Assembly (NCBI GenBank): GCA_026770705.1
Contig: JANJGN010000009.1
Coordinates: 164,114,001 to 164,178,000, forward strand
From: Isurus oxyrinchus
Lineage: Eukaryota
DNA length: 64,000 nt
Reading direction: 5' to 3'
Shown here: piece after piece, positions 7,176-60,270 of the stretch
How the letters are laid out: every line of letters starts with the position of its first letter
Position numbering within the stretch: the stretch's first letter is position 1
Made by a program: the position numbers and the translations under genes
The notes under the pieces: generated by a model
Seen by the model: the letters and a program-made list of their open reading frames with translations, nothing else
Databases searched by the model: none
What the model was told of the DNA's origin: nothing

Positions 7176-7212
7176 ATGTGGATTTTGATTCTCCTCATTA
7201 GTTCTCTGCCCG
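7176..7212 (+). CDS. Gene 1 exon 1, signal peptide MWILILLISSLP (extra in-frame ATG at 7173)
   Basis: ATG, hydrophobic run, then G|GTGAGT donor (phase 1). Joins VLGALWA of the V exon. Conserved at 42593. Confidence 0.85.
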
Positions 7213-10200
7213 GTGAGTGACAGCCAGAGCTGGATGTTCCGATATTCTGAGTTGGTTTAACTCTCGTGCGCTGGTTATACAGGAGATGTTTAAATATTTG
7301 GAGACATGCAAAGGCACAAGAGAGGTCTTGGGCACAGTGGGTAGTGTCTCTGTATCTGAGCCAAAAGCTCTGTGTTTGAGTCCCACTTCTGTTCTTGTTG
7401 AGAATGGAAGGCGCGTTCTAACCAGGACCAACAGATTGATTATCAACCTGAAAATCTTCCAACAGACCGAAGGCTGGTGGTAAGAGGGTTTAAGATCCCA
7501 GTCCAACATGTTTGATGTGGAGTGGTGCCGCTCATTCTGTTGTCTCCGGAGGTTAGTGACCTGTTCCAGGGAAAACAAGCTTTGGAAAGCAAAAGTAAAC
7601 ATGTGCTTTGTCTGCCGCATCCGTCTCTAGATGTGGGAAGTCTCCTAAGTCTAAAGGCACAAAATAGTCAGCAAAACCAAATGAGTAATAATTGTGAAGT
7701 ATTTTATTACCCTGTGAATTAACTATCACACCATGGGAATAGTTAACAAATAAACTGAACTGCATTATTAATTATGAATGATAAGTAAAGGAGAATTAAA
7801 TTTTCAGAATGCTATGCAAGCAACATTTTGAAAATGAAAACCTTTTTTAATTGGTAATTTTCAATATAATCTGATGTCCAGTATAGACTGAAGACTGCAG
7901 CGGTAATAATCCCACAAATAAAACATGTCCCAAGTTGGCGAATATTTCTGTTTTTTAAAGTACAGTTGATGAAATATTGTGTTATGAGGCTCTCTCAGTG
8001 ACACTGTTCCTCACTGGTAGATGGTTGGTCTACATCACTCTTCTCATAAGTAGCCTTTTCTTGTTCATTCTTTAACTTTAAGAAACTAGATTTTGCTCAT
8101 CACTCAGTATTGCCACCTCTCCATCATTTCGATGAATCTATTTTATAACACACAATGTTAAACTCCCAGCCCCATCTGCTCTTAACCACCTCCCCAAAAT
8201 AGTTTGTGCCTCTAGCTGATCAATTTAATGCAGAATACTCGATGTACTTATGGACAGGAAACTGAATCATGTTTCTGTCTGTTTGGCAATCTTCTTCTTT
8301 TCAATCCTTCCTCTTTCTGATCTGATCTCTTTCCCATTCCCTTTTCATCTGTAACTTTTCCTGTATCTTTTTCCTTTTCTTCACTTCTCTCTAGCCATTT
8401 AATTATTTTCAATCTCTCTTTTGTTATTTTAGTGCAAACTCTTTCCCCACAGCATGAGTTTCTCTCCCAGCAAGGCCATTGGTCTCATGAAAGTTCAAGT
8501 CAAGGCATCCAAATCCCTACCTCAGGAATCCATCCATACTGTAAGGCCACCTATCACACAACCTCGCAAACCTTCAAGACCTTCAAATCCTACCTTTGGA
8601 CATCCCTAACTCATTCAAGATCTGAACAACCCCTCCTGCAAGGACACAAACCTACCCCGCACCCCACCCATCTCAGATCAGAGCAGGGAACTGTCGGATC
8701 CTGTGACCCCCTCCACACTGCTCCCCAGCCGACTGCAAATCAGGCCTGTCAATCAGACTGGTTTCTGGCTGTGGAACCTCCTGATGATGTCAAACGCAGT
8801 CTAGGGTGAAACCCCAAAATATGAGGCAGAACCCCAATTTCCAGGTTCCCTCACTCTACCAGCCCCTGCCAATATGTCAAGAAAATGTCCCAATTATCTC
8901 ACGAGTATATCATTGTCTGAGACGTGCTTTGGAACCACAGTGAGGCTCTGATAAGTGTCTATATGAATGATTACTCTCATCACAAACTTGATGGAATTTA
9001 ACTCATTAAAATGCATCTGTTTGAATTAAACAGTTATTTCCTGTTCAATTCCTGAAATGTTCTCTCCTCAGTTTTAGGTGCATTGTGGGCAAAAGAGAGA
9101 GTAACAGGAGTTGTGGGAAGAGCGATCACAATAGAATGTCACTATGATGCATGGAGGTACAAGTCACATATAAAATATTGGTGTCGCGGCTGGACTCGCC
9201 AGTGTAATGTTGTAGCATCAACAAATAGGCCAAATGGAAGAATATCGGTCACAGATAACAAGTCACAAGGAATATTTATTGTTACTATGGAGGATCTTCA
9301 CTCAGGAGATACAGGATGGTACAGCTGTGGTATTGAAGCAACTGGCCACGATCCAATGTTTAATGTAAAGCTACAAATATCTTACGGTACATTTCTTACT
9401 GTTTTTCTTTATTACTCTCGACTGAAATGTCTGCTCAATGTTTTATCTGGGAGGAAACATGACAGCTCCGATATCCCGAGGCTCCACAGCAATGCAGAGT
9501 CTTAAAGGTAAAGGGCAGAGGTCGGGAAATCCGACTCATGTTACCCAAACCCAATTCATGGCCTGTCAAACATGTCAGAATTGAACGTTACAAGTGAACT
9601 AAACGGAAATTGAGAAGTTGTTTTGATGGTAAAAGAAGCCTCTTTATTAATTGTTGAGACATTGGGCTGGATATTCAGCCTCAAAGCGGGTAGGGGCAAT
9701 TCAGAAAATTCCCCGCTCGGCCTTGGAAGAAAGTGCCCACAAAGGTGGGATTCCCATTGCTGGGAGCTGTGCCCGGGCTGCAGTCTGGCCAGCCACACCA
9801 GGAAGAAATGCAGAGGCAGCCACAGGGGCTGCCGGCTGCGGAGACGGGCTGTTTAAAAGGCCCCTCCTTAATGCCCTTGGACTTTGTAACAGCTAAACTC
9901 AAAACACAAAGGCCCTTCACCCCTCACCCCTCACAGCCCCCAAAGGGGGTGGATGTGAGGGGAAAATTTGTCATGAGGGGGCTTGGAGGTGGGTGGAAGT
10001 GTACAGCTTGAAGTCAGGAGCATGAGGGGGTATAAGGCGTGGGTATAGGGATAGAGGGGGAACGAAGGGCCAAGCGGGTTGGATGGGGGTGTGACTTGAC
10101 ATAGCGGGCATGAGATGCACCTTTTGAACTTAGCTGTTAAAAGATCCCCTCATGCAGACCAGTGTTTACAGCTCCTCTGAGGGGCTTTGGACTACGACTC

Positions 10201-13200
10201 AATCAAAACCTGGCCCGAGTCCATGAAAATTGCAGAGGAGTCGGACGTCACTTTGGTCTGAAGGCTGCACAAAGCACAGGGTAGAGGCCCTGGACTAAGA
10301 CACCTGCCTTTATCTTGTACAGAAAGTGTTCACATGTGAGTGACATGAACATTGCTCATCAAAACAAGGAGCGATAGGCAGGGAGACATTCTTTGGAGTT
10401 TATTGACAATAATGAACAGTATGTACAAGTGATTAACACCCGTGCCCAGGACGTGAAACTACTTCTCCTCAACCACGCGGTGTCTGGCAGCACTGTTGAG
10501 ACCTTCTGTGCTCGGTGGGTGACCACGGGGGTTGGGGTCCTTTATCCAGCCTCTTAATCACATTTTGGTTTGATGTTGTAAGTGTCCTTTAAATCATGTC
10601 TTTGGTTTTGCAGTGACCCTAACTTAGGGGCTGCGTTTTATATTATCCCTCATTTTGTTAATTTAGTTTATTGGGTTGGCTTTAAAAGAGCTACATCTTC
10701 TCAACTTTCCTAATCCTCCCGCTACATCTTGGTGCTCCGCAGACATCCACAGTGGAGGTAAAGACAGTCTGCTGACTGCTATGCTCTGTCTGTGATAACT
10801 TTGGCGGGCATCCTCTGGAGGCCTGAGGCCTGGAGGGCCCCGGCTTCCTTTCGAGGTCCTACTGTGTGGCATTAGCACGCTCCTTGTCCTGTGGACTGGG
10901 AGCTGTCAAGGTCACAGTAAGAGGGGAGTTACCAGGATGAATGGCCCCGGAGGGTACACATGTTGATCCTTCTCGCTATGGGTACCCAATGGCCATTGGC
11001 TGAATCCTTGAGGAGCAGGTGTAGCTGGAGTGAGATCGAGCTGCCTGCACCCCTCTCGCATACACACTGTCAGGGGCCAACTATACATCAGCAATGGAGT
11101 TCAGCCCCGCAGCAGTGTAGGAACAATGCCCTGGACCAACGTCTCCATGGCAGCTGCCATCCTACCAGTGTTGACCTCGGTGCAGTGACATGCCGGCGCT
11201 ATCACCTCAGAGTGCAGGCGGATGGACTCCTCCATTGTGCCTTGCAATCTGAGGGGTGCAGCAGATATCCCTTCCTGATGTTCCCGCGTTGGCCTTTCCA
11301 GCTCCAGCAACTGTGACATGACCAAATCCAGAAACGCGTCACCTGACTCGAACTCAGCAAATTTATGGCCTCCAGCTGCCCACTGAGTGCCGGACACCTG
11401 GGAAGCCCCTGCCGCTGCCAGTTGTGGATCAGGCAGTGCAATTTGCTCACCAGCTGTGACCCTGAGTCTACTCTAAAGCTAGATCTCACCGAGGGGTGTG
11501 CCTCTGCACTGGTGGAGGGTGTGGGTGAGGGCAGTGATGGTACAGCAAGGAGGGTCCCTCCAGGTTCCTCTTCAGAGATTTCTTTGGGGATTACTTGGTG
11601 TCCCTGGTTCTCCATCGGCTGTTTCCCAGATGTGCGTGTGGAAGCAAGTGGAAATATTTTGTGCATGGCAGTGGCCTGTGAAACAGGACACATCACTCAC
11701 AGCATGGTTGTCTGATGGATGTTGCACTGCTGGACCCTCACTTGGCTGAGCACCGCAGACCTCACCGTCAGAACAGGATTGGTCCAGGCCGTTGCCGGCC
11801 AGCTGGATGGCTCTGTTTACAAAGTACTAGTACCGTTCAGGAACATGATGTTCATATTTTCATACATGTCGCTGAATTTGTCAGTCACATTTACGCCTCT
11901 ATTATCAACCAAAGAGCGGGATTGTCCCCGATTTGCACTAAGTGCGTTAGTGGGCGGGGGAATTGATGTTTTACCCACCGGCCACAATGGGGGGTTTTCA
12001 GGCCGCATCGTCCCAAACCCAACGCATTAGTTATGCATTCCCGGGAAACATACCATTTCCATGGTGAGTGGGATCTCATTCACCCCAAACACCATCATTT
12101 CACTGCTTCATCAGGCCCAGCACCATATGTAAAGTCCAGCCTCGTGCACACATCTCAGTGTTTCCAACCCAGGACCACTGCAGGGAAGATATCCCCAAGA
12201 GGCAAAAGGACTGTAGCTCCCAGGTTTAGTGAGCTGTCACTGCAACACATTGTGTACACTGTGGGGGCCCTGCTGTGATGTCCTCTACTCCCACTCTGGC
12301 TGCAGTATGGACAGCGCTGTGACCAACCAGGCCTGGGAGGCGGGGGCAGCGGTGGTCTACCCACTGAATTTTATTAAGTTAACCCTCACTGTCAGATAAT
12401 GTAGACAGTATGAAAAGTGTGGATGAGAAACCCTTAGAAACTGTCCTTGCTGGATGGAAACAAATACTGGAGAGATTGGAAATTTCTAAATGAAATGAGT
12501 GGATGCCTGATTGTTTTAGAGAATGAAATGCAGGTACAACAAATTTTTTAGGGATCTGAGGAGAGGGCTATCTTGCAATATGATGAAGTATAGAATATTG
12601 AGATTTTTAATTCAATTTGTTTCACACTTTTTGGTCACCATATTAACTGAAAATTTTATTTAAATGAGAGAAGGTCATCACCTAATCGTTTACTAATTGT
12701 GTTTAATTGTATGCAGTGGTGGCATTAATTGGTGATTCACTTGTGCACCTATAAACAGATGCAGACTGAAACTGCGGGTGGTGGATTTAATTAGAATCAC
12801 ACAGTAAACAGCACTTTAAAACAGTTCCACAAGTCTTAACCTATCTAACCTCAGAGCTAATCTTTCTCTTTTCCGTTCAGCAACTAACACTATAGATTTA
12901 AAAAGCTATAGAAGTCCAATAATTTTACCACACAGTGCTTTCACATTGGGGTGTCCACTGACAGCAACTGGGTCTTCAGATCTGGGCCTTGTTCACACTG
13001 TCTCCTGGGAATTCTGACCAGCTACCCTGCTGTCTTCAGGGAGATCTGGCCAACCATCCTGCTGTGTTCTGGGAGATCTAAGCAGCTACCCCCTCACATA
13101 GGCTTCAGTATTCCCTTAAATGTGTTTCTTCTCTTTCATCTCTCTTTGTTGAAACCAGTCTGTTCAGAAATGCTTTTATCCCAGGATTGATTAAATCAAT

Positions 13201-16200
13201 CTTCACTTTAATTCTTAGACTTGTAAAAACAAACGTACCCTATCTTTATGTCACTTCATGACACCTTTTTACAACCTGCATATATCCCCCTTTGAACTAA
13301 AACAACTTAATTCAAACTATTCCTGTTATTGCTTCATGTACAAATCTGTTGAAGTTCTTTTGTGTTCATTAACATATCAAAACCACTTCTTACTGTTGAC
13401 TTTTGACCCTATCCACTGATGAGGCAGTCCACGTCATGGAACCATAACCTTAAATCTGGAGATAGGCTCGTCAGGGATGTCGGGAAGCACTTCTTCACGC
13501 AAAGTATAGCGGAAATCAGGAACACTCTCCTCAAAAAAGCTCTTTCGCTCAATTGAAAATTTCAAAACTGATTGACAGATTTTATCTGGTAGCAATATTC
13601 GGGTTATGGGACCCAGGTAGGTAAATGGACAGAAGATACTGGTCAGTTGGGATTTAATTGAATTGTGGAACAGGCTGAAGGGGCTGCATGTCCGAATCCC
13701 TTTTCCATGTTCTGGAGCCCCAGTTAATTTTTCAGTGGTCTGGGCCTTGTGAGTAACAATGTGCTGTGAAACAAGCTCACAAACAGTTAGCATTTCAAAG
13801 AGACACTTTCCAATCACCAGGCAAACTGTGACCTGTGTTGTTTCAGAGTACAGTTTGTGACAGTGAAAGCAGTGAAGGCCTGCCAAACCTCACTAAAAAT
13901 GTTGGTGAAAGTGTCACTTTTCTCTGGCTAATCCCTTGATCAAAGAGGGAATTTTAATTCCCCTCCCCCATCCAGCATCGTGTTGAAGCATGATGGGATT
14001 TGCTGGATCCAGAACCTTCTCCAGCACGGCTTGTGATCCAGGAGACACACGAAAGCTTCACCCCCACCCCCAGGCAAATGTTTCATACAATTTCTCCCTC
14101 CCCATGATTGGCCAATCCTGCCCCAAGCAGCAAAGTCACCCTGACTCCCTCCTCGCTGCTGTGCTCCGAGGCAACATTCCCACCAATTTCCAAACTTTTA
14201 CCATAACGTTCCTACTTGGAAACCAGCCAAACATTCAATCAGTGTGCAAGAATTCTGGTAAGATTTTGCTGTTAAATTCAGCACAAACTCAACATTCCTG
14301 GTATTTCCAGCTTTCTCACCACCCCACACACAGTCCCCCCTCTCGTCTCCACGTACCAGGGTTGAAGTGTTCTATCGCAGCATGCAGAGAACCAGAGCCA
14401 ATCGCATTTACATTCTTATCCAAAGCCACAAAACATGTAACCGATATCTGACAACATTTTGCCCTCATTTTCCCCTTTGCTTTTCTAAGATTCTCTCCAA
14501 CTAATTCACATTCAACTCACAAACAATGAAACAGCATTGGAGGCTCACTACCAGCTACGAAGAGATATTGTTCACCATGATATTCATGTTAACATACTCT
14601 CAGTATCATAGCTGCTGTTCTGATCTGGAGACCTGATTTGTTCTGATATAATGGCTGAAAGGGTAACTCAGGCCTCTAAGAGGATGGAGAGATATGGGGA
14701 TGGATTTTTAAAAAGTATGCTATCAGGATTAGAGATGGGTGGGTGTGAAATTTGACACCGCTGGTCTCCATGCCAATTTACTGTTACAATCTCAAGCCCG
14801 AAACATTTAGAAAGCGAGCGGCTTGCAGTCAAGTGGTGGGCAGCTAACTTAGGAAATAACATTTACCAAAGGGGCCAATTAAAGACCCATTCCTGCACCC
14901 ACTGGGATTTCATTCAGCAATGATAGCAGACCACATTGCCCCTTCAGGATCATGGCCCGGCAGTTGCCGGGTTTTGAAACATAAAATAAACTTACCTGGA
15001 CTTTCCCCTTGCTGTCTCCATGCTCAGGTCAGCAACTCCCACCTCACCTGGTGAGGCCCTCTAGCATCAGGAGCCCGCCCACTGTCCCTGATTGGGTGGT
15101 GAGCCCAGTTCCAGGCTTTTGATTGGCTGGAACATTGAAAATTGTATTGGGCATGCCTAAAGAATGGTGAATGGTGTCAGGACCTGAAACTATCTCCCAT
15201 GTCCAGTTCGCAAACCCAAATTTAACATCCACCCCATAGAGTGGTAGATGTGTTGGTGAGATTCCAACATGACAGAGCCTGGCTGAGATGAAGTGCAAAG
15301 TTTGAAGAGTATTTGATTATTAAATGTTCAGTATCTGAATGTTTCTTTCTTTCCAACAGAACCCGTGTCTGTTCCTGTGCTTAGATTTTCATCACCACCA
15401 CATGTCTCATGTTCTGGTGGTTCAGTGTCCGACTCCTGTGAGTCTGTCCAGGGATCCCTTCCCATTCAGTACACATGGTATGAAAAGACCCTGTCTGAAG
15501 ATTCAAAGATCTCTGACACCAATAAACTGGATCTACATTGTCAATCCTTCAAACAGCAACATCATCAATATTACTGCACAGCCTCAAATAATCAGGGAGA
15601 AAAATCCAGTGACACTGTCACTGTTAACTTAACACTCATGAATGTAACAACGAAAAGCTGCAGTTATGTGATACAAATTGGAAACATTGGTAAGTGTTAC
15701 TTTCTACAAACAATGTGGCGAATGAATGTTTTAAATTCATGTCTATCCAAACTGGTCACTGATTCAGTTCCTTCAGTTTATCTGAGAAATTGCAACTGGC
15801 CAAATTCACTCTCTCTGGTTCCTCAAACATTCTGAACAAGGTCACTAAGTTGCATTTTTCATGAAAAATGGACAGGATCATAAAATATCCCCAAAACATG
15901 CAAAAATATTGCCGAATCTCCAACAAATCCATCGAATCAAAATAGCATTTGATTGACAGAGCTTTCATAAAGCAATTTGTCTATTTCCAGCAGATGGAAT
16001 TGTGAAATGCAACCTCCAACTGTTGTGTCCTAGTTTGGGAAGGATATCACTGATAGAATAGAGAAGAATTGAATTAAAATGAACCCTTGGATGAGAGGCT
16101 TTAGTCATGAGGAAAGTATCATCACAACTGAGGTGAATGACCAGCTGGAGGGCGTGGAAATTGTTAGAAATTTGGATAAGGTAACTCTAACTATTTCCAC

Positions 16201-28638: not shown

Positions 28639-28745
28639 GAGGGAAAATGAAGATTCCGGGGTTACATCAACATTGATGGAATTTTTCATCCTGACAAAAT
28701 ATTCATTATTCGTCGAGCTTTGAATTTCTTTTAATAATTCTACAG

Positions 28746-37186: not shown

Positions 37187-37223
<37 letters not shown>

Positions 37224-37283
37224 GCACACACAAACATAAGCACACACACTAATATCCTCAATCACATACACACACACACAAAC
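36622..37283. repeat. Compound (CA)n minisatellite, unit 2 copy
   Basis: Same unit with a different copy number. Confidence 0.95.
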
Positions 37284-41100: not shown

Positions 41101-41400
41101 GGCTAATACCAGGAATGGGTGGATTGTCTAATGAGGAAACGTTGGACAGACTAGGCTTCTATCTGCTGGAGTTTAGAAGAGTAAGAGGCGAATTGATTGA
41201 AACATATAAGTTCCTGAGGGGAATTGACAGGGTGAGTGCAGAGAGGATGTTTCCTCTTGTGGGAAAATGTGGGGTCACCAATTTAGAACAGAGATTAGGT
41301 GATTTTTTTTAACTCAGAGGCTCGTGAGTCTTTGGAAATCTCTTCCTGAAAAGGTGGTGAAGGGGAGTCTTCAAATATTTTTAAGGCAGAGGTGGAGTGG
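38107..41400 (+). mobile_element. CR1-clade LINE, unit 2 copy
   Basis: Same motifs (ORFs 38323, 39137, 40013, 40752). Confidence 0.92.
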
Positions 41401-41539
41401 CACAAATCAGCAGTAACTTGTGGCAATTCACGATTCATTGGCTTTTTTCTTCATCGCCAAAAGTTGCTGACTGATTTTCACATTAAAAGAGGTGTTCGTA
41501 GTTCATACCCCATTATATTTTCAGTAAGTTCTAGCCCAT

Positions 41540-42135
41540 TGTTATAGAATTGATTTTCCAGGCAACTTTTCTGGGTGGAAACATTGAACTTTATTTACAA
41601 GACAGCAGCAGCAGCTACATGTGTGTATCTAACTCTATAACTAAAGGACAACTCCCCCATGGAGGTTCCCCATGCTGCAAACTGGTTGGATCACACAGAT
41701 CATGTTCTCTTACCAGAAAGGATTATTCTTAATGTTACAGTCCTACATTGATCAAAACTATAATTATTACATTCCTCACCCTTTACCTTTTCTGTACATT
41801 TGTATTTACAAGGATGTTGATCTCATGACATTAAAATACTTCCACAGGTCATGAAATTATAAGCTTGGTCTTTCAAGTGGTTTCCTGATCCATGTGGAAC
41901 GTTTTAGTTTCACGACCTCAGATTCTCTGACAGGAACCACAGTCTCTGCAATAACATCAGGTACCTCATTAGGCACAGGCAGATCAGTGTCGTCCACTCC
42001 GACAGAGACATCGGGCATGACTATCCTTGGCTGTACAATTTTAACAGGAACCACAGGTTCAACAATGGCTACAATTGGAACATCATTTTGTGGGGTATCT
42101 ACATTCTTTTTAAATCAATCAGATGCTAATGGGTG
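41540..42135 (-). mobile_element. Gypsy-like remnant, unit 2 copy (LTR 41540-41771)
   Basis: Homologous to 6128-6720; ORF 41857-42054. Confidence 0.68.
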
Positions 42136-42592
42136 ATCTACAAAGATTAGCAAATAAAACCAAAATGTTAAGAAATCTCTGTATTCAATTTGACAACTAA
42201 ATTTCAGAAATGAAAAAAATACTTCTGTTCCTGTGGGGTTTGTGGAAATTGGGAGGGGGTTCCTGTTCTAACTCACCTCACAATTCAGTATCAATACTAG
42301 CTCAGCTCATCATTATCCATATGTTCTAACATTTTAACATTCTGGTTTTCAGGATTTTATATCCTCAATGAAAATTAGATTTGTTCTTTTGTTAAATATA
42401 ACTGACAGAAGTTCACGTCCTTAGGGCCAGATTTCATCAGATGCCTTAATATGGCTTCATGACCTGGCTTCCTGCTATCTTCTTCCTCATTTAAATTCCT
42501 TGTATCATTTATATTAGACACTTACTTCGATGTGAGAAACAAGAGCTGAGTGTCTGGAAACAAGTTCTGCCCTGATCTTTGTGAACAAAACG

Positions 42593-42629
42593 ATGTGGAT
42601 TTTGATTCTCCTCATTAGTTCTCTGCCCG
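42593..42629 (+). CDS. Gene 2 exon 1, signal peptide
   Basis: ATGTGGATTTTGATT...CCCG|gtgagt. Confidence 0.85.
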
Positions 42630-48600: not shown

Positions 48601-51600
48601 CTCTATATAAACTATTGGAAAAAAACAAAAAGTGGAGGAAGAAACGGAAAGGGGATGGAGATGGCGGTTGGGGCCAGGGAACTGGAAATTGGTGATGTGA
48701 CGTAAGGTGTCAGAGGAATCACGGATGTAGGTGGGAAGGGACTGGACAAGGGGAGAGCGAAGGGAGTCAAGATAATGAGAATTGAGTTCCGTGGGGCAGG
48801 AAGAGGCTGACACGATCAGTCTGCCGGGACAGTCCTGTTTGTGGATTTTGGGTAGGAGGTAGAAGCGGGCCGTCCGAGGTTGGGAGACTATCAGGTTGGA
48901 AGCTGTGGGAGGAAGATTTCCAGAGGAGATGAGGTCAGTGACAGATCTGGAAGCAATGGCTTGATGTTCAGTGGTGGGGTCATGGTCCAGGGAGAGGTAG
49001 GAGGAAGTGTCTGCGAGTTGATGCTCAGCCTCCACAAGGTAGAGGTCAGTGCGCCAGACAACAACTGCACCACCCTTGTCAGCGGGTTTGATGGCAATGT
49101 TGGGGTTAGGCTTGAGAGAATGGAGTGCAGTATGTTCAGAGAGAGACAGGTTAGAATGGGTGAGAGGAGCAGAGAAATTGAGACGACTAATGTCACGCCG
49201 ACAGTTCTCAATGAAAAGATCAAGAGAAGGTAAGAATCCAGAGGGAGGGGTCCAGGTGGAGGGAGAATATTGGAGGTGGGTAAAAGGATCCGTTGAATGG
49301 GGAGAGGACTCCTGCCCAAAGAAGTGAGCCCGGAGACGAAGACGGTGGAAGAAGAGTTCAGCATCATGCCGAGCCCGAAATTCATTGAGATGAGGACGTA
49401 AGGATATGAAACTAAGTCCTTTGCTGAGCACTGAACGTTCAGCATCAGAGAGGGGAAGGTCAGGGTGTATAGTGAATACCCGACCGGGGCTGGGATTGGA
49501 AGATGGGGTGGGGACAGAGGGACAGGCAGGGTTGGAGGGTCCTGGATGTGTGTTGGTATCACTGAGTTGTTGCAGCTTGCGTTCCTTAGCACTTGAGAGA
49601 AAGAGAAAAGGTTTCTTGTTGAGGCGACGGATGAGACGAAGAATAGAATGAAACTGGGGGCACGGGCAGCTTTGGAAAGGGGTACGGCGATGCTGCTGGA
49701 GGGAGAGGTCGAATGTGTTCATATGGCAGCGCATGGCACTGAGTGTGGATCTCAGAATGCAACGGGAACAGTATTCCGAGGAATGTTGTATGTCCCAGAG
49801 ATACCTGTAATCCTGGGTTGGTTCGAATCCGATGGAATTTCAGTTGAGATCCACATGCGGTAAGTCGGAGACAGAGACAGTCACTGAGAAAGGAAATATG
49901 GCTGTGAAAGCGGGTTTTAGTAAACACCTTGTCAAACACCAGGAGAGAAATGGAAAGCAATGAAGGTAAATAAGGCAAAAGAGAGATATGAAAATCCTGA
50001 CGGAGAGTAGTACAAAACTTCTTTAAGGTAGGCATGTCTTGAAGAGAAGTGGCAGTCAATTAAACACGGATAAAAGCAAAAAACTGCGGATGCTGGAAAT
50101 TCAAAACAAAAACAGAAACATAAATAGCTGGAAAAACTCAGCAGGTCTGGCAGCATCAGCGGAAAGAGCACAGTTGATGTTTCGAGTCCTCATGACCCAT
50201 CAACAGAACTAAGTAAAAATAGGAGAGGGGTGAAATATAAGCTGGTCTAAGGGGTGGGGGTGGGTGGTGGTGGAGGGAGAAGTTGTTGGGACAAGCAAGC
50301 AGTGATAGGAGGAGATAACCAAAAGATGTCACAGACAAATGAACAAAGAGGTGTTGAAGGTGGTGATATTATCCAAAAGATTGTGCTAATTAAGGATGGG
50401 TAGCAGGACAAGCAAGGTACATGGTGGCATCATGCTGCAGTTGGAGGCGGAAATGGCGGAGAATGATCCTTTAGTGCGGAGGCTGGTGGAGTGATAAGTG
50501 AGGACAAGGGAGACCTCTTCATGTTTCTGGGAGACTTGCTGCCTTCTTCCAGTGAAGCTCAATGCAAACCGGAGGAACAGCACCTCATCTTCCGACTAGG
50601 CACTTTACAGCCATTGGGACTGAATATTAAGTTCAACAATTTTAGATCATAAACTCCCTCCTCCATCACCAACCTCTTTCCGTTTCTTCCCCCTCCTTTT
50701 TCCTTTTTCCAATACTTTATATAGATTTATCTTTTCCCACCTATTTCCATTATTTTTCATGTATTCCACCGATCATTTATCTATACCTTTTAAGCCCTTT
50801 AAGTCTTATTTCACCCCACCCTCCACTAGAGCTATCTGTACCTTGATTGTCCTGCTATCCATTCTTAATTAGCACATTCTTTTAGATGATGTCACCACAT
50901 TCAACACCTCTTTGTTCTTTTGTCTGTGACATCTTTGGGTTATCGCCTCCTATCACCGCTTGCTTGTCCCAACAACTACCGCCGACTTCTCTCTCCACCG
51001 CCCCCCCCGCCCCCCGACCCATTAGACCAGCTTATATTTCACCCCTTTCCTATTTTAACTTCGTTCTGTTGAAGGGTCATAAGGACTCTAAATGTCAACT
51101 GTGCTCTTCTCTGCCGATGCTGCCAGACCTGCTGAGTTTTTCCAGGTTGGGGAATTCTGGGTGTGGCTTTTGAATGAGCCAGCCTGTATCCTTTAAAGCT
51201 GCTCCCAAAATCACACAACCCAGGAACGCAGTTGGGAATCCCAGAATTAGGACACACCCGCCATTTTTAAAGGGCTCCTGAATCAACCCAAGTTGGTGAA
51301 ATCCAGGCCGTCACTTTGGTCTGAAGGCTGCACAAAGCACAGGGTAGAGGCCCTGGACTGAGACACCTGCCTTTATCTTGTACAGAAAGTGTTCACATGT
51401 GAGTGACATGAACATTGCTCATCAAAACAAGGAGCGATAGGCAGGGAGACATTCTTTGGAGTTTATTGACAATAATGAACAGTATGTACAAGTGATTAAC
51501 ACCCGTGCCCAGGATGTGCAACTGGCCTAAATAGCCAAGTGGTTATGGTACTGGGTTTGTAACCCCAAGATCAGCAATTCAAATCTCACAATGGCAAAAT

Positions 51601-54600
51601 ATGAAACAATGTAACTTGATCTGAATAGGAACAGATGGAAATGTGTTTGTACTCAAAAGAGTTACATTTCCTCAACTCTCGAGGCCTTCCGTGCTCAGTG
51701 GGGACTGGGGTGCTTTATTGACCCCTTTTAGCACTTTTTGGTTTAAAGTTGTAAGTTTCCTTTAAACTTTGTTCTTGGTTTTACAGCTGACCTAAATTAG
51801 GGGCTGTCCCTTATTTATCCTAATTTTGTAAATTTAGTTTAATTGTTTTGACTCTATAAGAGTTACATCTCCTCAACCCCCGTAATATGAGCCGCCTCGG
51901 GGACATGTCCTCTGTGCCATTTGGCACAGCAAAGAGGAGCTTTTTGTACGGACTGCTGCTGCACATCTTCCATTTTCTCGCCCTTGTCCGCCGCCTGGAT
52001 ATGCCCTGGCATGCCTTGTTGCCTTCCGGCAGCGGAGGCCCCCGATGGGAGGCCCTCTGAGGAGGTGTCCTCCCCCTTTCTATCGGGGACCTGGGTTCGA
52101 GGGTGTTGCATGCAGCAGTCCCCTATAATAGGAGAATTCATAGGTTCACGGACTCCCAAGACACATGCCCTTTTCGTGGTCTTGTGGAGTCCGTGGACCA
52201 TGCATACATAGGGTGTGGTAGGTTGCACTCCCTTTTCAGTTACTTGATGAACCTTTTGTTAATGTCTTGTTTGCACTTCAGCCCCACGCTCCTGATCTAT
52301 GGACACCCGGTGCGGAAGGGGGTCGGAAAGGAGGAGGACCTCCTCGTGAACCTGCTCCTGGGCCTGGCCAAGTTGGCCATTAACAGGTCCAGGCAGCAGG
52401 CGATCGAAGGGGGAGTCCTGCCCAATTATTTATCCCTCTTCCGCGGCTACGGTCGCAGCCGGATGTCCCTGGAAAGGGAGCATGCGGTGTCTGCCGGCAC
52501 TCTCGAACCCTTCCGTGCTCGGTGGGCACCGCGGGGACTGGGGTGTTTTGTTGACCTCTTTTATCACATTTTGGTTTAAAGTTGTAAGTTTCCTTCAAAC
52601 TTTGTTCTTGGTTTTACAGCTGACCTGAATTAGGGGCTGTGCCTGATTTATCCCAATTTTGTTAATTTAGTTTAATTGCTTTGACTCTATAAGAGTTACA
52701 TCTCCTCAACTCTCGAGACCTTCTGTGCTCGATGGGTGACCACGGGGGTTGGGGTGCTTTATCCAGCCTCTTAATCACATTTTGGTTTGATGTTGTAAGT
52801 TTCCTTTAAATCCTGTCTTTGGTTTTGCAGTGACCCTAACTTAGGGGCTGCGTTTTATTTTGTTCCTCATTTTGTTAATTTAGTTTATTTGTTTGGCTTT
52901 AAAAGAGCTACATCTTCTCAACTTTCCTAATCCTCCCGCTACATCTTGGTGCTCCGCAGACATCCAGAGTGGAAGTAAAGACAGTCTGCAGACTGCTATG
53001 CTCTGTCTGTGATAATTTTGGCGGGCGTCCTCTGGAGGCCTGAGGCCTGGAGGGCCCCGGCTTCCTTTCGAGGTCCTGCTGTGTGGCATTAGCACCCTCC
53101 TTGGCCTGTGGACCTGGAGCTGTCAAGGTCACAGTAAGAGGGGAGTTACCAGGATGAATGGCCCCAAAGGGTACACATGTTGATCCTTCTCGCTATTGGC
53201 TGAATTAGCGAGCAGCAGGGGTAGCTGGAGTGAGATTGAGCTGCCCGCACCCCTCTCTCATACACACTGTCAGGGGCCAACTATACATCAGCAATGGAGT
53301 TCAGCCCCACAGCAGTGTAGGAACGGTGCCCTGGACCAACATCTCCAAGGCACCTGCCATCCTAACAGTGTTGACCTTGGTGCAATGACATGCCAGCGCT
53401 ATCACCTCAGAGTGCAGGCGGATGGATTCCTCCATATTAACTGAAAATTTTATTTAAAAAGAGAGAAGGTCACCATCTAATCCTTTATTAACTGTGTTTA
53501 ATTGTATGCAGTGGTAGCATTAAACAGATGTCTTCAGGTCTGGGCCTTGTACACACTGTCTCCTGGGAGTTCTGACCAGCTACCCTGCTGTCTTCAGGGA
53601 GATCTGGCCAACCATCCTGCTGTGTACTGGGAGATCTAAGCAGCTACGCCCTCACATAGGCTTCAGTATTCCCTTAAATGTGTTTCTTCTCTTTCATCTC
53701 TCTTTGTCGTACCCAGTCTGTTCAGAAATGCTTTTATCCCAGGATTGATTAAATCAATCTTTACCTCTTAGACTTGTAAAAACAAACTTACTCTATGTTT
53801 ATGTCACGTCCTTACACCTTTTTACAACCTGCATATATCTCCCTTTGAACTAAAACAACACAATTCAAACTATTTCTGTTATTGCTTCATGTACAAATCT
53901 GTTGTAGTTCTTTTTTATTTATTAACATATCAAAACCACTTCAAATTGTTGACTTTTGACCCTATCCACTGATGAGGCAGTCCATGTCATGGAACCATAA
54001 CCTTAAATTTGGAGATAGGCTCGTCAGGGATGTCAGGAATCACTTCTTCACGCAAAGTATAGCGGAAATCAGGAACACTCTCCTCAAAAAAGCTCTTGAA
54101 CTTAAATGAAAATTTCAAAACTGATTGACAGATTTTATCTGGTAGCAATATTCGGGTTATGGGACCCCGGTAGGTAAATGGACAGAAGATACTGGTCAGT
54201 TGGGATTTAATTGAATTGTGGAACAGGCTGAAGGGGCTGCATGTCCGAATCCCTTTTCCATGTTCTGGAGCCCCAGTTAATTTTTCAGTGGTCTGGGCCT
54301 TGTGAGTAACAATGTGCTGTGAAACAAGCTCACAAACAGTTAGCATTTCAAAGAGACACTTTCCAATCACCAGGCAAACTGTGACCTGTGTTGTTTCAGA
54401 GTACAGTTTGTGACAGTGAAAGCAGTGAAGGCCTGCCAAACCTCATTAAAATCAAGTTCTGTCGAAGGGTCATGAGGACTCGAAACGTCAACTCTTTTCT
54501 TCTCCATCGATGCTGCCAGACCTGCTGAGTTTTTCCAGGTAATTCTGTTTTTGTTTTGGATTTCCAGCATCCGCAGTTTTCTTTGTTTTTATCTCATTAA

Positions 54601-57600
54601 AATGTTGGTGAAAGTGTCACTTTTCTCTGGCTAATCCCTTGACCAAAGAGGGAATTTTAATTCCCCTCCCCCATCCTGCATCGTGTTGAGGCATGATGGG
54701 ATTTGCTGGATCCAGAACCTTCTCCAGCACGGCTTGTGATCCAGGAGACACACGAAAGCTTCGCCCCCCCACCCCCAGGCAAATGTTTTATACAATTTCT
54801 CCCTCCCCATGATTGGCCAATCCTGCCCCAAGCAGCAAAGTCACCCTGACTCCCTCCTCGCTGTTGTGCTCCGAGGCAACATTCCCACCAATTTCCAAAC
54901 TTTTACCATAACGTTCCTACTTGGAAACCAGCCAAACATTCAATCAGTGTGCAAGAATTCTGGTGAGATTTTGCTGTTAAATTCGGCACAAACTCAACAT
55001 TCCTGGTATTTCCAGCTTTCTCACCACCCCACACACAGTCCCCCCTCTCGTCTCCACGTACCAGGGTTGAAGTGTTCTATCGCAGCATGCAGAGAACCAG
55101 AGCCAATCACATTTACATTCTTATCCAAAGCTACAAAACATGTAACCGATATCTGACAACATTTTGCCCTCATTTTACCCTTTGCTTTTCTAAGATTCTC
55201 TCCAACCAATTCACATTCAACTCACAAACAATGAAGTAGCATTGGAGGCTCACTACCAGCTACGAAGAGATATTGTTCACCATCATATTCATGTTAACAT
55301 ACTCTCAGTATCATAGCTGCTGTTCTGATCTGGAGACCTGATATGTTCTGATATAATGGCTGAAAGGGTAACTCAGGCCTCTAAGAGGATGGAGAGATAT
55401 GGGGATGGATTTTTAAAAAGTATGGTGTCAGGATTAGAGATGGGTGGGTGTGAAATTTGACACCGCTGGTCTCCATGCCAATTTACTGTTACAATCCCAA
55501 GCCCGAAACATTTAGAAAGCAGGCGGCTTGCAGTCAAGTGGTGGGCAGCTAACTTAGGAAATAACATTTACCAAAGGGGCCAATTAAAGACCCATTCCTG
55601 CGCCCACTGGGATTTCATTCAGCAATGCAAGCAGACCACATTACCCCTTCAGGATCATGGCCCGGCAGCTGCCGGGTTTTGAAACATAAAATAAACTTAC
55701 CTGGACATTCCCCTTGCTGTCTCCATGCTCAGGTCAGCAACTCCCACCTCACCTGGTGAGGCCCTCTAGCATCAGGAGCCCGCCCTCTGTCCCTGATTGG
55801 AAGGTGAGCCAGTTCCAGTCTTTTGATTGGCAAGAACATTGAAAATTGCAGTGGGCATGCCTAAAGAATGGTGAATGGTGTCAGGACCTGAAACAATCTC
55901 CCATGTCCAGTTCCCAAACCCAAATTTAACATCCACCCCATAGAGTGGTAGATGTGTTGGTGAGATTCCAACATGGCAGAGCCTGGCTGAGATGAAGTGC
56001 AAAGTTTGAAGAGTATTTGATTATTAAATGTTCAGTATCTGAATGTTTCTTTCTTTCCAACAGAACCCGTGTCTGTTCCTGTGCTTAGATTTTCATCACC
56101 AGCAAATGTCTCATGTTCTGGGGGTTCAGTGTCCGTCTCCTGTGAGTCTGTCCAGGGATCCCTTCCCATTCAGTACACATGGTATGAAAAGAACCTGTCT
56201 GAAGATTCAAAGATCTCTGACACCAATAAACTGGATCTACATTGTCAATCCTTCAAACAGCAACATCATCAATATTACTGCACAGCCTCGAATAATCAGG
56301 GAGTAAAATCCAGTGACACTGTCACTGTTAACTCAACACTCATGAATGTAACAACGAAAAGCTACAGTTATGTGATACAAATTGGAAACATTGGTAAGTG
56401 TTACTTTCTACAAACAACGTGGCGAATGAATGTTTTAAATTCATGTCTATCCAAACTGGTCACTGTTTCAGTTCCTTCAGTTTATCTGAGAAATTGCAAC
56501 TGGCCAAATTCACTCTCTCTGGTTCCTCAAACATTCTGAACAAGGTCACTAAGTTGCATTTTTCATGAAAAATGGACAGGATCAGAAAATATCCCCAAAA
56601 CATGCAAAAATATTGCCGAATCTCCAATAAACCCATCGAATCAAAATAGCATTTGATTGACAGAGCTTTCATAAAGTAATTTGTCTATTTCCAGCAGATG
56701 GAATTGTGAAATGCAACCTCCAACTGTTGTGTCCTAGTTTGGGAAGGATATCACTGATAGAATAGAGAAGAATTGAATTAAAATGAACCCTTGGATGAGA
56801 GGTTTTAGTCATGAGGAAAGTATCATCACAACTGAGGTGAATGACCAGCTGGAGGACGTGGAAATTGTTAGAAATTTGGATAAGGTAACTCTAACTATTT
56901 CCACTAGTCAGTGAGTCAGCAACAAGAGAGCATTAACTTTAAAATTATCACTAAAAGGACAAAGGGAGAAATTTGGAGAATTTTATTGATGCAAACTGTT
57001 TTTAGGACATGGAATGCCCAACTGAAATAAGTTTACAAACAAATTTAATAATAGATTTTAAAAGGGAAACAAATGTATGAGGGTGTGGGAAAAGGACAAT
57101 GAAATGGAATTAAATGAGGAGATCATTCAGAGAACCAGCATTCGAGTGATGGGCTGAATTCCCTCCCCTGTGTTGTAAAAATTCCATCATTCCAGTCAAA
57201 ATCTCAAATTATCCTGTATAAAAAATTAACTATTCGCTCCCCATAAAACAATGACCCTGGTTCTGAAACAAGGATGACTTTAGCCTATTTGAATGTAGCG
57301 GTTCAATTTTCTGCAGAGTGGGTGCAGCATGTTCACCGAGAAACACCAACATGGGCACAAAACAAAGAGAATCACATTTTCACCTGAGCAGCAGGAGACA
57401 GGAATTTACATATGCAAATATATTGACTCTGGTCATGTGGTCTCTTGCCTCAGTCGTCAGGGAAGAAGGGTGGAATTTTACACCCCCATTGCGGCAGGGA
57501 CTGGGCTGTAAAATGCAGCCAGCCATTCTAAACTCCATGCACTCCAGCAGGACCATAAAATCCCACTGTCACAAGGCTCAGACCAAAGGCTGTCAGCAGC

Positions 57601-60270
57601 AGGTAGAAATTACACCTGTAAACTGTGTTTGTACTGGAGTTGTCAGCAGGGACTCAGTTGCACTCTGACCTTTGATGCCAGTCTTTTGTAGTTACAAGTT
57701 CCCCTTAAGAGTTAAAATTCGGGCTGATACCATGATCCAGCTCTGAGGTAGTGCTATACTGGTGGTGGTGCTGCTGTGTAGATGAGGTATTAAACTGAGG
57801 ATCCACATCCTCCTTAGGTAGATGTAAACAATTCCAGGGTATTATTCACAGAATAGGGAAGTTCTCCTGGCGTCCTTGAAGCCTTTATTCCTCAACCAAT
57901 ACACACAAATAGGGAGCAGGAGCAGGCCATTTGGTCTTTTGAGCCTGTTAATGTCACTAGAAAACAGATCATCTAGTGAATGTTTTACTGATGTTTGTGG
58001 GGCTTTGCTGTGTACGAATTAACTTCCACGTTTCTTGATATTAAAACTGTGGCTTTACTTCAAAAAAGTACTTCATAGGCTCTGAAGCACTTTGGAATAT
58101 CCCAAGGTTGTGAAAGGTGATGAATCAACACAACTTGTTTCTTACTTTTTGAAACAAACCATTTATTAAAATACATCTGAACCAATTATCTGAGTGCAAA
58201 CTGCAGGGGGGGGAGGGGGAGGGAGGAGCCAGTCCCAGCAGCAAGGTGGTCATTATAATTAAATGGTCAGAAAATCACTGGCAGGTTTGAGACATTCATG
58301 GTCAGTGGGTGAAGATTGTCATCTTTACTGCAAGCTCAGAAAACTGCCCCCAAAGGGCAGAAAGTGACCATTGCCAGTATTAGGATGTGACTGTTTAATG
58401 TGTTCACATGAAATTCATGTCAAGAAAGTGTATCTCTGGATTGCAGTCCACCAACTTGAGCCCTTATCAGGCCCACTAGTAACTCTGTCCCACCAACTCT
58501 CAGATATAGGAAAGAAAGTGAAATTACCAGTAAAGATAGACCACCAGGTATCAGCAACCTCTCCACTTGTGACCAGAGAGGGGTAAATTACACAGAAATC
58601 AATTCTACCAGCCAGGCTTTTCCTCAATTAATGAGGTTCCATTTGACAATGATGCTCTCTCAGTTGAATACAAGTGAAAATGAGGTGAATCTCAATGTTA
58701 TTCCCTTGTGTCAACAGGACGTGAGTATTGTTGTGAAGCTTGTACAAGAGTATCACCAACTACATATTTGACAAGTACAGATATAATTTCCACTACCAAT
58801 CGAGCCACAACTTCAGATCCCGAAAATGCTGAAAGGTACAATGTTCTCATGGATTGGCATTGCTTCCATATGTGAGAGATACAATTGGCCAAAGGAGTGA
58901 AAGTTGTTCATTAATTGTAAAGTAGCTCATCAGAATGGAAATGGTGGCTGGGTTTATATCATGCTGTTGTGTTAGCTTCTTAATGAGGCTGCATTTTTCT
59001 GTTGGAAAATACAAGCAAGGAGTGAGCTTTTCCATTGTGTTGCCGCTCAGATGGTGTTTTTTGCCTTATTCACCTTGATTACTTCACCGCTAAGGTAATC
59101 TCACAGTGTGCGAGGAGTTGTACTTGTCAAACTTACCTTGCTGCTGTCTACACTGACAGAGTACTTGTATTTGGGCTGATGAAAAGGAAGAATTAGCGTG
59201 ATATATCTGCACATCCCTTGGTTTCACTAATGAGAGACATCTTGCAACTCTGGTCCCATTTCCATATTATTAGCCTAAGCTGTTGACAATAAGTAGCAGA
59301 AATTGTAGTCCGATGTAAACACTCAGGAATCAGGTCTTTGAAGTTACAATGGTGATAAAGAGAAAACGCCAACTAAATGTCAAACAGAAAGAGGGACAGT
59401 TGGAAATGGACAGCAGGTATGTCCGCAGCTGTGGAGAAAATAAACACGTTCATGGTTTGGGTGCAGACACTTCTTCAGAATTCTAGTCCACACACGAAGC
59501 GAAGCAGGTCCACTCACCCCACAGATCCCAACTGAGCTGCTGAATGTTTCCAGAATCTTCTGTTTTCCATTCATATTTCTAGCACATGCAGTGCTCTTAC
59601 TTTTATCCAGATTATTGTCAATGATTTAAAAAGGATTGAAAGTCTAGGGTCTGAATTTTCCGCTCGGCGGGGGTGGTGGTGGGGTAGAGCGGGAGCGAGC
59701 ACGGGCAGCTGTGGACCCCATCGCCATCCACCATCGGGTTTTTGACGCCATTTTGCGCGGGCGGCCAATTTAGGCCATCCCAGCGTATTTCCCGGCTCCC
59801 GAGGATAGCGGCAGTGGGCGAGAAGCGGGGAGTGTGCACAGACAACCGGGTCCAATGGTGACCCAGCGGCCTGTTTAAATGAAGGCCTGGCAGCCTGTTC
59901 CAGCTGCTCACAATGGCCAGTGCAAAGAATTTTCACTTACAATTTAGCTTAGTATTACAGTTAGACATTATGGACATGCTAAAGAAATTTGCTTCGTTTG
60001 ATTTTTATCTAATGATCATGAAGTTGATAAGTAAAACTTTAGCTGATTCTTTCAGCTAAAGTCCCTTGTCTACTTTATGTTGCTGCAAAAAATTACAGTG
60101 TAAAGCGGAGAGTCATGTTTCAAAAATGAAACAGTCTCATTTCATTTAAATGGTTTGATATTTCTTCTCTTTTGCTCAGTTACATTATCTGGGATGTGAT
60201 ACGCTGGGTGCTCTTTACTCTCCTGGTGATTTGTGCTGTTTCAGGCACATGGTGTACGAGAAAATCTAAG
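42593..60270 (+). CDS. Gene 2: paralogous receptor, L-V-C2-stalk-TM; exons 42593-42629, 44492-44806, 56064-56393, 58718-58835, 60180-60270; last exon expected just past the window (~64055)
   Basis: Same exon lengths (37, 315, 330, 118, 91), splice sites and phases as gene 1. The joined frame is open. Confidence 0.87.
44492..44806 (+). CDS. Gene 2 Ig V-set domain exon
   Basis: VSGALWAKKEVTGVVGRAITIECHY...KYWCCGWSRQC...DTGWYSCG, with the same splice sites as 9072-9386. Confidence 0.93.
45706..51146 (-). mobile_element. Penelope-like element cluster (partial tandem copies plus an inverted 3' copy at ~50535-51146), only in unit 2
   Basis: RT motifs IKPADKGGAVVVW, FYLLPKIHK, MDIQSLYTSIPH, FLRYIDD. 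GIY-YIG region NLVYCIRCSQC..YIGKTKRRL. Repeated pLTR-type tails at 45706, 48150, 50070 and, inverted, ending 51146. Confidence 0.92.
51524..51661 (+). mobile_element. tRNA-Thr(UGU)-like SINE ending AAAAGAG
   Basis: GGCC..TAGCCAAGTGGTTA..ACTGGGTTTGTAACCCC..TTCAAATCTC resembles tRNA-Thr(TGT). Followed by the target repeat ttacatttcctcaa. Confidence 0.7.
51676..52907 (+). mobile_element. Three tandem 5'-truncated Tx1-clade LINE pieces (51676-51862, 51877-52695, 52710-52907) separated by 14-bp target repeats
   Basis: ORF2 C-terminus FLYGLLLHIFHFLALVRR...TCPFRGLVESVDHAYIGC (zf-RVT-like)...LAKLAINRSR. Each piece ends AAGAG followed by (t/c)tacat(c/t)t(c/t)ctcaa. Confidence 0.8.
54453..54592 (+). 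mobile_element. 140-bp Penelope-tail insertion with perfect 11-bp TSD
   Basis: ctcattaaaat at 54442-54452 and 54593-54603. Empty homologous sites at ~13890 and ~20145. Confidence 0.88.
54455..54493 (+). ncRNA. Minimal type I hammerhead-ribozyme-like motif
   Basis: AGUU-CUGUCGA-A-GGGUC-AUGAG-GACUC-GAAA-C-GUC-AACU: stem I, core, stem II, palindromic ACGU in place of stem III, GUC cleavage triplet. U replaces the core A6. Confidence 0.6.
56064..56393 (+). CDS. Gene 2 Ig C2-type domain exon
   Basis: Differs from 20612-20941 at 4 aa. Splice sites intact. Confidence 0.9.
58718..58835 (+). CDS. Gene 2 stalk exon (GREYCCEACTRVSPTTYLTSTDIISTTNRATTSDPENAES)
   Basis: 118 nt, acceptor tgtcaacag, donor AG|gtacaa. 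Confidence 0.85.
60180..60270 (+). CDS. Gene 2 transmembrane exon
   Basis: Protein sequence identical to the gene 1 TM exon. Confidence 0.9.

What the first reader, a model, noticed from the sequence alone, without database searches (positions are those of the whole stretch)
7176..60270. Tandem array of activating-type CD300/pIgR-like (MDIR-like) receptors with different domain numbers
Seen: two intact gene models, V-C2-C2 and V-C2, with an identical TM segment. Gene 1 has a 16-aa tail (TRKSKTLNESNPHSLT) with no tyrosine motif. Known: the Cx6C extra disulfide marks CD300/TREM/pIgR V domains, and V+C2 modular receptors (MDIRs) were described in skate. Inference: this is a young, expanding innate-receptor cluster. 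The unit continues past both window edges, so more copies and possibly inhibitory partners are likely nearby.
Basis: partly seen in the sequence, partly recalled or inferred. Interest (0 to 1): 0.7.

Follow-up and report, generated by a model that had tools for sequence, protein, structure and literature searches.

The report
Two tandem shark MDIR immune receptors
Two neighbouring copies of a known shark immune-receptor gene family (MDIR, cousins of human CD300) look like activating receptors whose ligand-binding tips have drifted apart, while the extra domain in one copy is probably a broken duplicate.

Summary
Real but ordinary. The window holds two tandem copies (period ~35.45 kb) of a lamniform-shark MDIR gene: leader-V-C2-stalk-TM-short tail. 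Skate MDIR3 and MDIR5 are direct hits (C2 65%; V 56-65%), and MDIR5 has the same TM and tail type. Probable-RNA contigs of the closest organism join C2, stalk, TM and the short tail, with non-C2 sequence upstream. The second C2 of gene 1 comes from a partial duplication: its stalk exon is cut, it has Asp at a core position (0 of 201 homologous domains) and probably an orphan Cys, so V-C2-C2 is in frame but doubtful. The TM Arg lies at the N-terminal end, which points to FcRgamma/CD3zeta rather than the DAP12 of most activating CD300s. The V keeps the CD300lf Asp98/Met100 loop. V1 and V2 differ at 25% of residues against 1-5% in introns: diversifying selection is suggested, not proven (dN/dS ~2, p 0.075). 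'Young' holds for C2/TM only; the array exists in white and basking sharks. No ITIM exon lies in the window; relatives have them. No earlier scan note on this DNA.

The parts
1..28548 (.). Copy 1 of the tandem unit (alignable part); matches 35478-64000
   Evidence: Self-BLAST; sliding divergence
7176..7212 (+). Gene 1 leader exon (phase 1); an extra in-frame ATG at 7173 is ACG in gene 2
   Evidence: tblastn of homologs
9072..9386 (+). Gene 1 V exon (V1), Cx6C, FG loop with the D-P-M-F motif
   Evidence: Pfam V-set E 1e-10; PDB hits CD300/pIgR/TREM
15360..15689 (+). C2a exon: in frame, but Val>Asp two residues before the B-strand Cys; probably a relic of partial duplication
18006..18050 (+). 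Cut stalk exon after C2a, joined to V-C2 intron sequence through a 2-nt microhomology; reads on to a stop near 18120
20612..20941 (+). C2b exon
   Evidence: covered by contigs of X2, X6, X17
23269..23386 (+). Gene 1 Ser/Thr-rich stalk exon with one Cys (phase 1 to 2), needed for frame
   Evidence: 95% identical to the white-shark P0024 stalk
24732..24822 (+). Gene 1 TM exon, Arg at the N-terminal end (W-D-V-I-R-W)
28603..28638 (+). Gene 1 tail exon to stop; AATAAA at 28746
   Evidence: contigs X6 record 26 and X2 record 23
35478..64000 (.). Copy 2 of the tandem unit, cut by the window end
42593..42629 (+). Gene 2 leader exon
44492..44806 (+). Gene 2 V exon (V2), with a fifth Cys next to the CC' disulfide
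56064..56393 (+). Gene 2 C2 exon (C2c); C-terminal Cys replaced by Tyr
58718..58835 (+). Gene 2 stalk exon, three Cys
60180..60270 (+). Gene 2 TM exon, peptide identical to gene 1

Best explanation
Two tandem, activating-type members of the elasmobranch MDIR family (MDIR5-like C-terminus) in a lamniform shark. Each makes a type I receptor: signal peptide, one CD300/pIgR-type V domain, one FcRL5-like C2 domain tied by a disulfide to a Ser/Thr stalk, a TM helix with an N-terminal Arg and a short tail without a signalling motif. Shown: exons, frame, homology, spliced C2-stalk-TM-tail order in the closest organism. Inferred: the V binds a lipid or microbial/viral surface ligand in the CC'/FG cleft, possibly with Ca2+ held by the conserved FG-loop Asp, and the Arg recruits an ITAM dimer of the FcRgamma/CD3zeta type on leukocytes. 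The cluster evolves by unequal exchange that keeps C2/TM/tail alike while V and stalk diverge. Gene 1's extra C2 is the leftover of a partial duplication; the working product is most likely V-C2 (C2a skipped), or gene 1 is partly disabled.
For: C2 search: 134 hits, 120 listed, all elasmobranch names, incl. skate MDIR3 and MDIR5 at 65%; V identity to the five MDIR3/5 V domains 56-65%. 39 of 148 fetched proteins end in the same W-x-x-[IGVL]-R-W TM with a short tail, incl. MDIR5; tails of Mustelus and Heptranchias align with the window tail. X6 record 26 holds C2 (record 236-565) and the tail exon (775-1031) in one 1031-nt contig; the gap fits stalk + TM (209 nt) with a tail acceptor 6 nt upstream; X2 records 17, 18, 23 fit the same order, with 404 nt upstream of C2 that are not listed as C2. 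Three intronic bins have zero depth in X2, X6, X17 and depth in X1. Feng et al. 2006 (PMC1440944, passages): FcRgamma partners carry an N-terminal TM Arg, type I DAP12 partners a central Lys. The V1 FG loop aligns without gaps to mouse CD300lf 83-107, putting Asp and Met on Asp98 and Met100 (E 0.026 for this short query), which hold the metal and line the phosphocholine cleft (PMC6166816, passages). Foldseek of a model of the white-shark relative P0083: top hits CD300lf, rmsd 1.4-1.5 A. C2a: cut stalk with 2-nt microhomology; Asp at a site that is V/I/M/L/A/G in 201 of 201 matched domains (241 examined, 40 not matched by the pattern); it keeps the Cys found in 74 of 77 C2 domains before a Cys-bearing stalk versus 43 of 100 before a V (sequences are related, so no true p).
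Against: The RNA contigs come from 'organism A', not shown to be this species: run X1 lacks two C2b-specific letters, and the runs' RNA status is the tool's guess. The tables are cut, so a C2-C2 joint may be hidden, and the laid stretch held neither V nor C2a. C2-C2 neighbours occur in 8 of 120 homologous models (5 labelled as isoforms X2/X3), so such products are not impossible. No ligand, adaptor or cell type was tested; two paper searches found nothing on FcRgamma or DAP12 in sharks. CD300lf Trp89 is Ser here, the Cys spacing is 6 not 7, and D-x-[MKLV]-F occurs in only 88 of 247 homologous V domains. dN/dS of V1 v V2 is not significant against synonymous sites (p 0.075). Gene 2 has an odd Cys in V and lacks a nearly invariant C2 Cys, which could mean decay.
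Confidence: 0.75

Rival explanations
1. One reading: gene 1 really makes a V-C2-C2 receptor, lengthened by exon duplication, beside a V-C2 gene 2.
For: C2a has intact splice sites and keeps the frame (418 aa model); only 7 of 109 residues differ from C2b; one of five AlphaFold models gives it a normal Ig fold (pLDDT 82); domain number varies widely in the family.
Against: Core Val>Asp in strand 21-28, probable unpaired Cys, cut stalk exon with a strong acceptor between the two C2 exons; listed RNA contigs show one C2. AlphaFold is not sensitive to single destabilising changes (own knowledge).
Confidence: 0.2
2. Gene 1 splices C2a to the cut stalk exon and stops near 18120, giving a secreted V-C2 decoy or a transcript destroyed by nonsense-mediated decay; gene 1 would then be partly a pseudogene.
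For: The cut exon keeps its acceptor and reads 37 codons to a stop; AATAAA/ATTAAA signals lie at 19223 and 19452.
Against: No read evidence; the laid stretch began at 19200. The downstream exons of gene 1 are all intact.
Confidence: 0.15
3. The receptors signal through DAP12 like most activating CD300s, or bind secreted IgM like pIgR/Fc-alpha-mu receptor, as the automatic names suggest.
For: Relatives are named 'polymeric immunoglobulin receptor-like' or 'CMRF35-like' by pipelines; pIgR tops the whole-sequence PDB list.
Against: pIgR's rank comes from summed domains; per domain CD300lf scores 66.8 bits against 39-44 for pIgR domains. The TM has no central Lys (rule in PMC1440944). The 16-residue tail lacks room for pIgR-type sorting signals (own knowledge).
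Confidence: 0.12
4. The duplication is an assembly artefact: two haplotypes placed in tandem.
For: N gaps lie at matching places in both copies; some stretches are almost identical (24445-25845).
Against: Introns differ by 1-5%, V exons by 25% of residues with two indels; copies differ by kilobase insertions; white and basking shark models show the same tandem layout.
Confidence: 0.05

Closest known systems
Skate modular domain immune-type receptors, MDIR5 (P0064) and MDIR3 (P0076); Cannon et al. 2006 (not held; known here through PMC3031540 passages and the two sequences)
   Same: Leader, Cx6C V domain (56-65%), C2 (53-65%), Cys-bearing stalk; MDIR5 has the same Arg TM and short Tyr-free tail.
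   Different: One V-C2 module instead of V-C2-V-C2 (MDIR5) or V-V-C2-V-C2 with ITIM-like tail (MDIR3); partial C2 duplication in gene 1.
Mammalian CD300 family (CD300lf/CLM-1, CD300a, CD300c)
   Same: V fold (rmsd 1.4-1.5 A, 37-38% identity for the relative's model), CC' disulfide, FG-loop Asp/Met; paired activating/inhibitory design.
   Different: CD300s have one V and no C2 (own knowledge); activating ones mostly use a central Lys with DAP12 (own knowledge); Trp89 not kept.
FcalphaRI / LILRA / GPVI / NKp46-type FcRgamma-coupled receptors
   Same: Arg at the N-terminal end of the TM, short tail (rule from PMC1440944; list beyond FcalphaRI recalled).
   Different: Unrelated ectodomain: those have C2-type domains only (own knowledge).
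FCRL5 C2 domains
   Same: Best PDB match of the C2 exon (domain 33 bits).
   Different: About 30% identity; extra cysteines in the shark C2; no FCRL-type tail.
pIgR and teleost pIgR-like proteins
   Same: V-domain family; pipeline names of relatives.
   Different: pIgR has only V domains and a long sorting tail (own knowledge); lower per-domain score than CD300lf.

Membership tests
MDIR (elasmobranch) | V domain of the CD300/TREM/pIgR type with the extra CC' disulfide | tested here: met
   Cx6C in V1 and V2 as in 201 of 247 homologous V domains
MDIR (elasmobranch) | Modular V + C2 ectodomain homologous to named MDIRs | tested here: met
   MDIR3 and MDIR5 hit by both C2 and V; identities
MDIR (elasmobranch) | C-terminus either charged TM with short tail or uncharged TM with ITIM-like tail | tested here: met
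   TM and tail match the MDIR5 type
MDIR (elasmobranch) | Multigene, tandem family | tested here: met
   Two copies here; several per species among hits
MDIR (elasmobranch) | Orthology to a particular skate MDIR | tested here: not met
   In the V tree skate MDIR domains group with other rays; window Vs sit in a starred lamniform set of 9. Family member, not a one-to-one ortholog.
MDIR (elasmobranch) | Expression as a spliced mRNA in immune tissue | tested here: inconclusive
   Spliced contigs in runs of the closest organism; species and tissue unknown
CD300 (mammalian sense) | Single V ectodomain without C2 | tested here: not met
   C2 exon present and spliced
CD300 (mammalian sense) | Metal/phospholipid pocket (Asp98, Met100, Trp89, CC' disulfide) | tested here: inconclusive
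   Asp, Met and disulfide kept, Trp89 not; binding not testable
DAP12-coupled receptors (TREM, activating CD300) | Lys near the centre of the TM | tested here: not met
   No Lys inside the TM; Arg 19 residues before the cytoplasmic basic cluster (PMC1440944)
FcRgamma-coupled receptors | Arg in the N-terminal TM segment | tested here: met
FcRgamma-coupled receptors | Physical assembly with FcRgamma/CD3zeta | not testable with these tools
   Needs co-expression; the shark adaptor was not located
pIgR | V-only ectodomain, long tail, polymeric Ig binding | tested here: not met
   C2 present, 16-residue tail; binding untested

The most novel reading that the evidence does not exclude
A shark paired-receptor system caught in an arms race: a CD300lf-type Ca2+/phospholipid pocket wired to an FcRgamma-type TM, made by swapping activating and ITIM cassettes at the phase-2 intron after a shared stalk (the white-shark model P0024 puts a 95% identical stalk on an ITIM tail), with selection concentrated on the pocket loops (17 of 26 V differences in 29 of 105 columns, windows chosen after seeing them), as expected of activating decoys for a pathogen that exploits the inhibitory twin. 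It would date CD300-type lipid sensing with paired signalling to the jawed-vertebrate ancestor.
Probability: 0.25. Interest if true: 0.6.

Novelty: new member of a known kind. Interest (0 to 1): 0.3.

Why it matters
MDIRs were described in 2006 and similar genes are annotated under automatic names in many shark and ray genomes, so the genes are not new in kind. The family is little studied: of five searches naming MDIR or shark pIgR-like/CD300 terms only one relevant paper came up (PMC3031540), and a review of cartilaginous-fish immunity has no passage with MDIR, CD300 or pIgR (PMC6795676, term search); subscription journals are not covered. Two testable points add something: the activating branch carries an FcRgamma-type Arg across sharks and rays, and this pair, with an identical TM and near-identical C2 but divergent V domains, is a natural matched set for finding the ligand.

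Tried and rejected
Own-genome search: no genome held, so flanks and copy number were not examined. Direct C2-to-TM splicing rejected: frameshift. An alternative tail exon near 26800 used by a basking-shark gene model was not adopted: it is seen in 1 of 120 homologs, inside a fused model, and the RNA contigs fit 28597/28603. Search for inhibitory TM/ITIM exons or a decayed V between C2a and C2b: none (120 homologs; 10 inhibitory C-termini at E up to 1). Trans-species V lineages: suggested by identity and one 92/85 pair, not established (AU p 0.147). Positive selection: p 0.075 against synonymous sites; 4e-6 against a 5% intron background, a test that cannot exclude conversion from an older paralog. 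Informative sites among the three C2 blocks gave a patchy pattern with no clear donor. No run was on record as RNA ('no RNA holder listed'). The CC' loop alignment to CD300lf was not displayed, so Arg42/Tyr34 equivalence is untested. The MDIR paper could not be read; its supplements and text may already describe the Arg TM. Paper searches gave nothing usable. No complex prediction was run. Trees used 79 V domains, then 16 V and 27 C2 domains, chosen by species from the 120 homologs; no mammalian CD300/TREM/pIgR sequence was available for a tree.

Full report
1. What is in the window. Self-comparison shows a tandem duplication with a period of about 35.45 kb: 1-766 matches 35478-36242 (97.5%), 1282-10248 matches 36688-45668 (95.2%) and 20445-28548 matches 55897-64000 (98.0%); inside copy 1, 15193-18051 repeats as 20445-23314 (96.7%). 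The match runs to both edges, which shows two copies and leaves a third open; no genome is held to look further. The host is a lamniform shark by inference: the best C2 matches are white shark (86%) and basking shark (85%).

2. Gene models. All exons are on the + strand with GT-AG ends. Gene 1: leader 7176-7212, V 9072-9386, C2a 15360-15689, C2b 20612-20941, stalk 23269-23386, TM 24732-24822, tail 28603-28638, AATAAA at 28746. Gene 2: leader 42593-42629, V 44492-44806, C2 56064-56393, stalk 58718-58835, TM 60180-60270; its tail exon would begin just past base 64000. The stalk exon, found through homologs, changes phase 1 to 2; without it both genes frameshift six codons into the TM exon. With it gene 1 reads 418 aa (two C2) or 308 aa (one C2), gene 2 reads 297 aa up to the end of the TM exon. 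The TM peptides are identical and the gene 1 tail has no Tyr.

3. Family. The C2 exon found 134 proteins (120 listed), all with elasmobranch names, among them skate MDIR3 and MDIR5 at 65%; the V exon found 95, including both MDIRs, chimaera proteins, one teleost pIgR-like protein and primate TMIGD3. V1 and V2 are 56-65% identical to the five MDIR V domains. Against solved structures the V scores best per domain with mouse CD300lf (66.8 bits), then human CD300f, CD300a, pIgR domains, TREM2, TIM-4 and NKp44; the C2 matches FCRL5. A model of the white-shark relative P0083 (pLDDT 75.6) gives CD300lf as top Foldseek hits (rmsd 1.4-1.5 A). PMC3031540 (passages seen) describes MDIRs as multigenic activating/inhibitory receptors of skate resembling CD300, TREM and pIgR; the original paper was not held. 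The homologs fall into two C-terminal types: an uncharged TM with ITIM-like motifs (MDIR3 and many others) or W-x-x-[IGVL]-R-W with a short tail. 39 of 148 fetched proteins end in the second type, MDIR5 among them; 9 of the 39 have a Tyr in the tail. The window's tail lines up with those of Mustelus and Heptranchias but is a few residues shorter.

4. Expression. No run was on record as RNA. Contigs of three probable RNA runs and one DNA run were laid on 19200-30500. X6 record 26 (1031 nt) matches C2 at record 236-565 and the tail exon with 3' UTR at 775-1031; the same depth (9.37) appears at stalk and TM positions. The spacing equals stalk plus TM (209 nt) if the tail acceptor lies 6 nt upstream of 28603, an in-frame two-codon difference that may belong to that organism or paralog. 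X2 records 17, 18 and 23 (same sample) fit the same order, and the 404 nt upstream of C2 in record 17 suit leader + V + UTR; no second C2 piece is listed. Limits: organism A is not shown to be this species (X1 lacks two C2b letters), the tables are cut, and V and C2a were outside the stretch.

5. The extra C2. C2a belongs to a partial duplication that ends 45 nt into a stalk exon, where the sequence switches to V-C2 intron DNA over a 2-nt microhomology; read on, that exon stops near 18120. C2a has Asp two residues before the B-strand Cys, within strand 21-28, a position that faces the core in Ig folds (established knowledge) and is V, I, M, L, A or G in all 201 homologous domains that the pattern matched, of 241. 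It keeps the N-terminal extra Cys that goes with a Cys-bearing stalk (74 of 77 against 43 of 100 domains before a V; 220 domains examined), from which I infer a C2-stalk disulfide that C2a could not form. Adjacent C2 domains appear in 8 of 120 homologous models, 5 of them labelled as alternative isoforms. So 'different domain numbers' is possible but less likely than a relic.

6. Mechanism. Signalling (inferred): the tail has no motif, and the TM Arg lies 19 residues before the cytoplasmic basic cluster. Feng et al. 2006 (PMC1440944, passages) report that FcRgamma partners carry an N-terminal Arg and type I DAP12 partners a central Lys. The receptors therefore most likely assemble with an FcRgamma- or CD3zeta-type ITAM dimer; I found no paper on these adaptors in sharks. 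Ligand (inferred, weaker): the V1 FG loop aligns without gaps to CD300lf 83-107, with Asp and Met on Asp98 and Met100; Nelson et al. 2018 (PMC6166816, passages) show Asp98 holding the metal and Met100, Trp89 and the CC' disulfide forming the phosphocholine cleft, which norovirus also uses. V2 keeps the Asp and Met in a loop one residue longer. Against: Trp89 is Ser, and the Asp motif is in only 88 of 247 homologous V domains.

7. Evolution. Introns and flanks differ by 1.0% (TM-tail), 2.4-2.8% (around C2 and stalk, upstream) and 4-5% (around V); C2 domains are 94-96% identical, leader and TM 100%, V 75%, stalk 68%. V: dN 0.14, dS 0.067 (Fisher p 0.075); non-synonymous changes exceed even a 5% background (p 4e-6). 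17 of the 26 differing columns fall in the CC'/C' region and the FG loop/G strand. The three C2 domains group together (88/82, not starred), whereas each V is nearer to a different white-shark V (89% and 83% against 76%); an AU test does not reject their being sisters (p 0.147). Predicted proteins of white shark (P0024) and basking shark (P0005) include translations of the same spacer and intron pieces between tandem genes, so the array is older than this species. The picture is an old cluster with recent turnover and homogenised 3' parts, not simply a young one. No inhibitory TM or ITIM exon is in the window, but P0024, a fused and thus uncertain model, attaches a 95% identical stalk to an ITIM-type tail.

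8. Verdict. A new member of a known kind. The scan's own notes held nothing on this sequence. Interest 0.3.

Noticed in passing
window 45700-51200: Nested Penelope-like retroelement pieces (RT E 2e-5; weak GIY-YIG) in gene 2's V-C2 intron, absent from copy 1.
   Followed up: partly
window 2850-5900 and 38250-41300: Decayed CR1-like LINE (weak endonuclease hits; class recalled) upstream of each leader exon, duplicated with the unit.
   Followed up: partly
window 34388-35025: 27-bp tandem repeat, 23.6 copies, open in several frames, in the spacer between the genes; next to it 35387-35530 matches a white-shark predicted peptide at 96%, probably mis-predicted spacer DNA.
   Followed up: no
window 24445-25845 vs 59897-61297: About 1.4 kb around the TM exon with only 3 differences between copies, against 2-4% elsewhere: a recent conversion tract or an assembly effect.
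   Followed up: no
window 44492-44806, 56064-56393, 58718-58835: Gene 2 has reshuffled cysteines: one extra in V, one lost in C2, two gained in the stalk; could allow dimers or mark decay.
   Followed up: partly
window 28590-28603: RNA contigs start the tail exon 6 nt upstream of the AG acceptor; the window has TG there, so either a paralog/species difference or a rare tandem acceptor.
   Followed up: partly
P0001-P0024 (homolog list): Many very long 'multi-domain' database models (e.g. P0005, P0024) contain internal leaders and TM segments: they are fusions of neighbouring tandem genes, so domain counts in annotations of this family are unreliable.
   Followed up: partly
P0079: A ray model fuses a TRIM RING/B-box part to C2-V-C2-TM; probably a fused prediction marking TRIM genes beside the cluster.
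   Followed up: no
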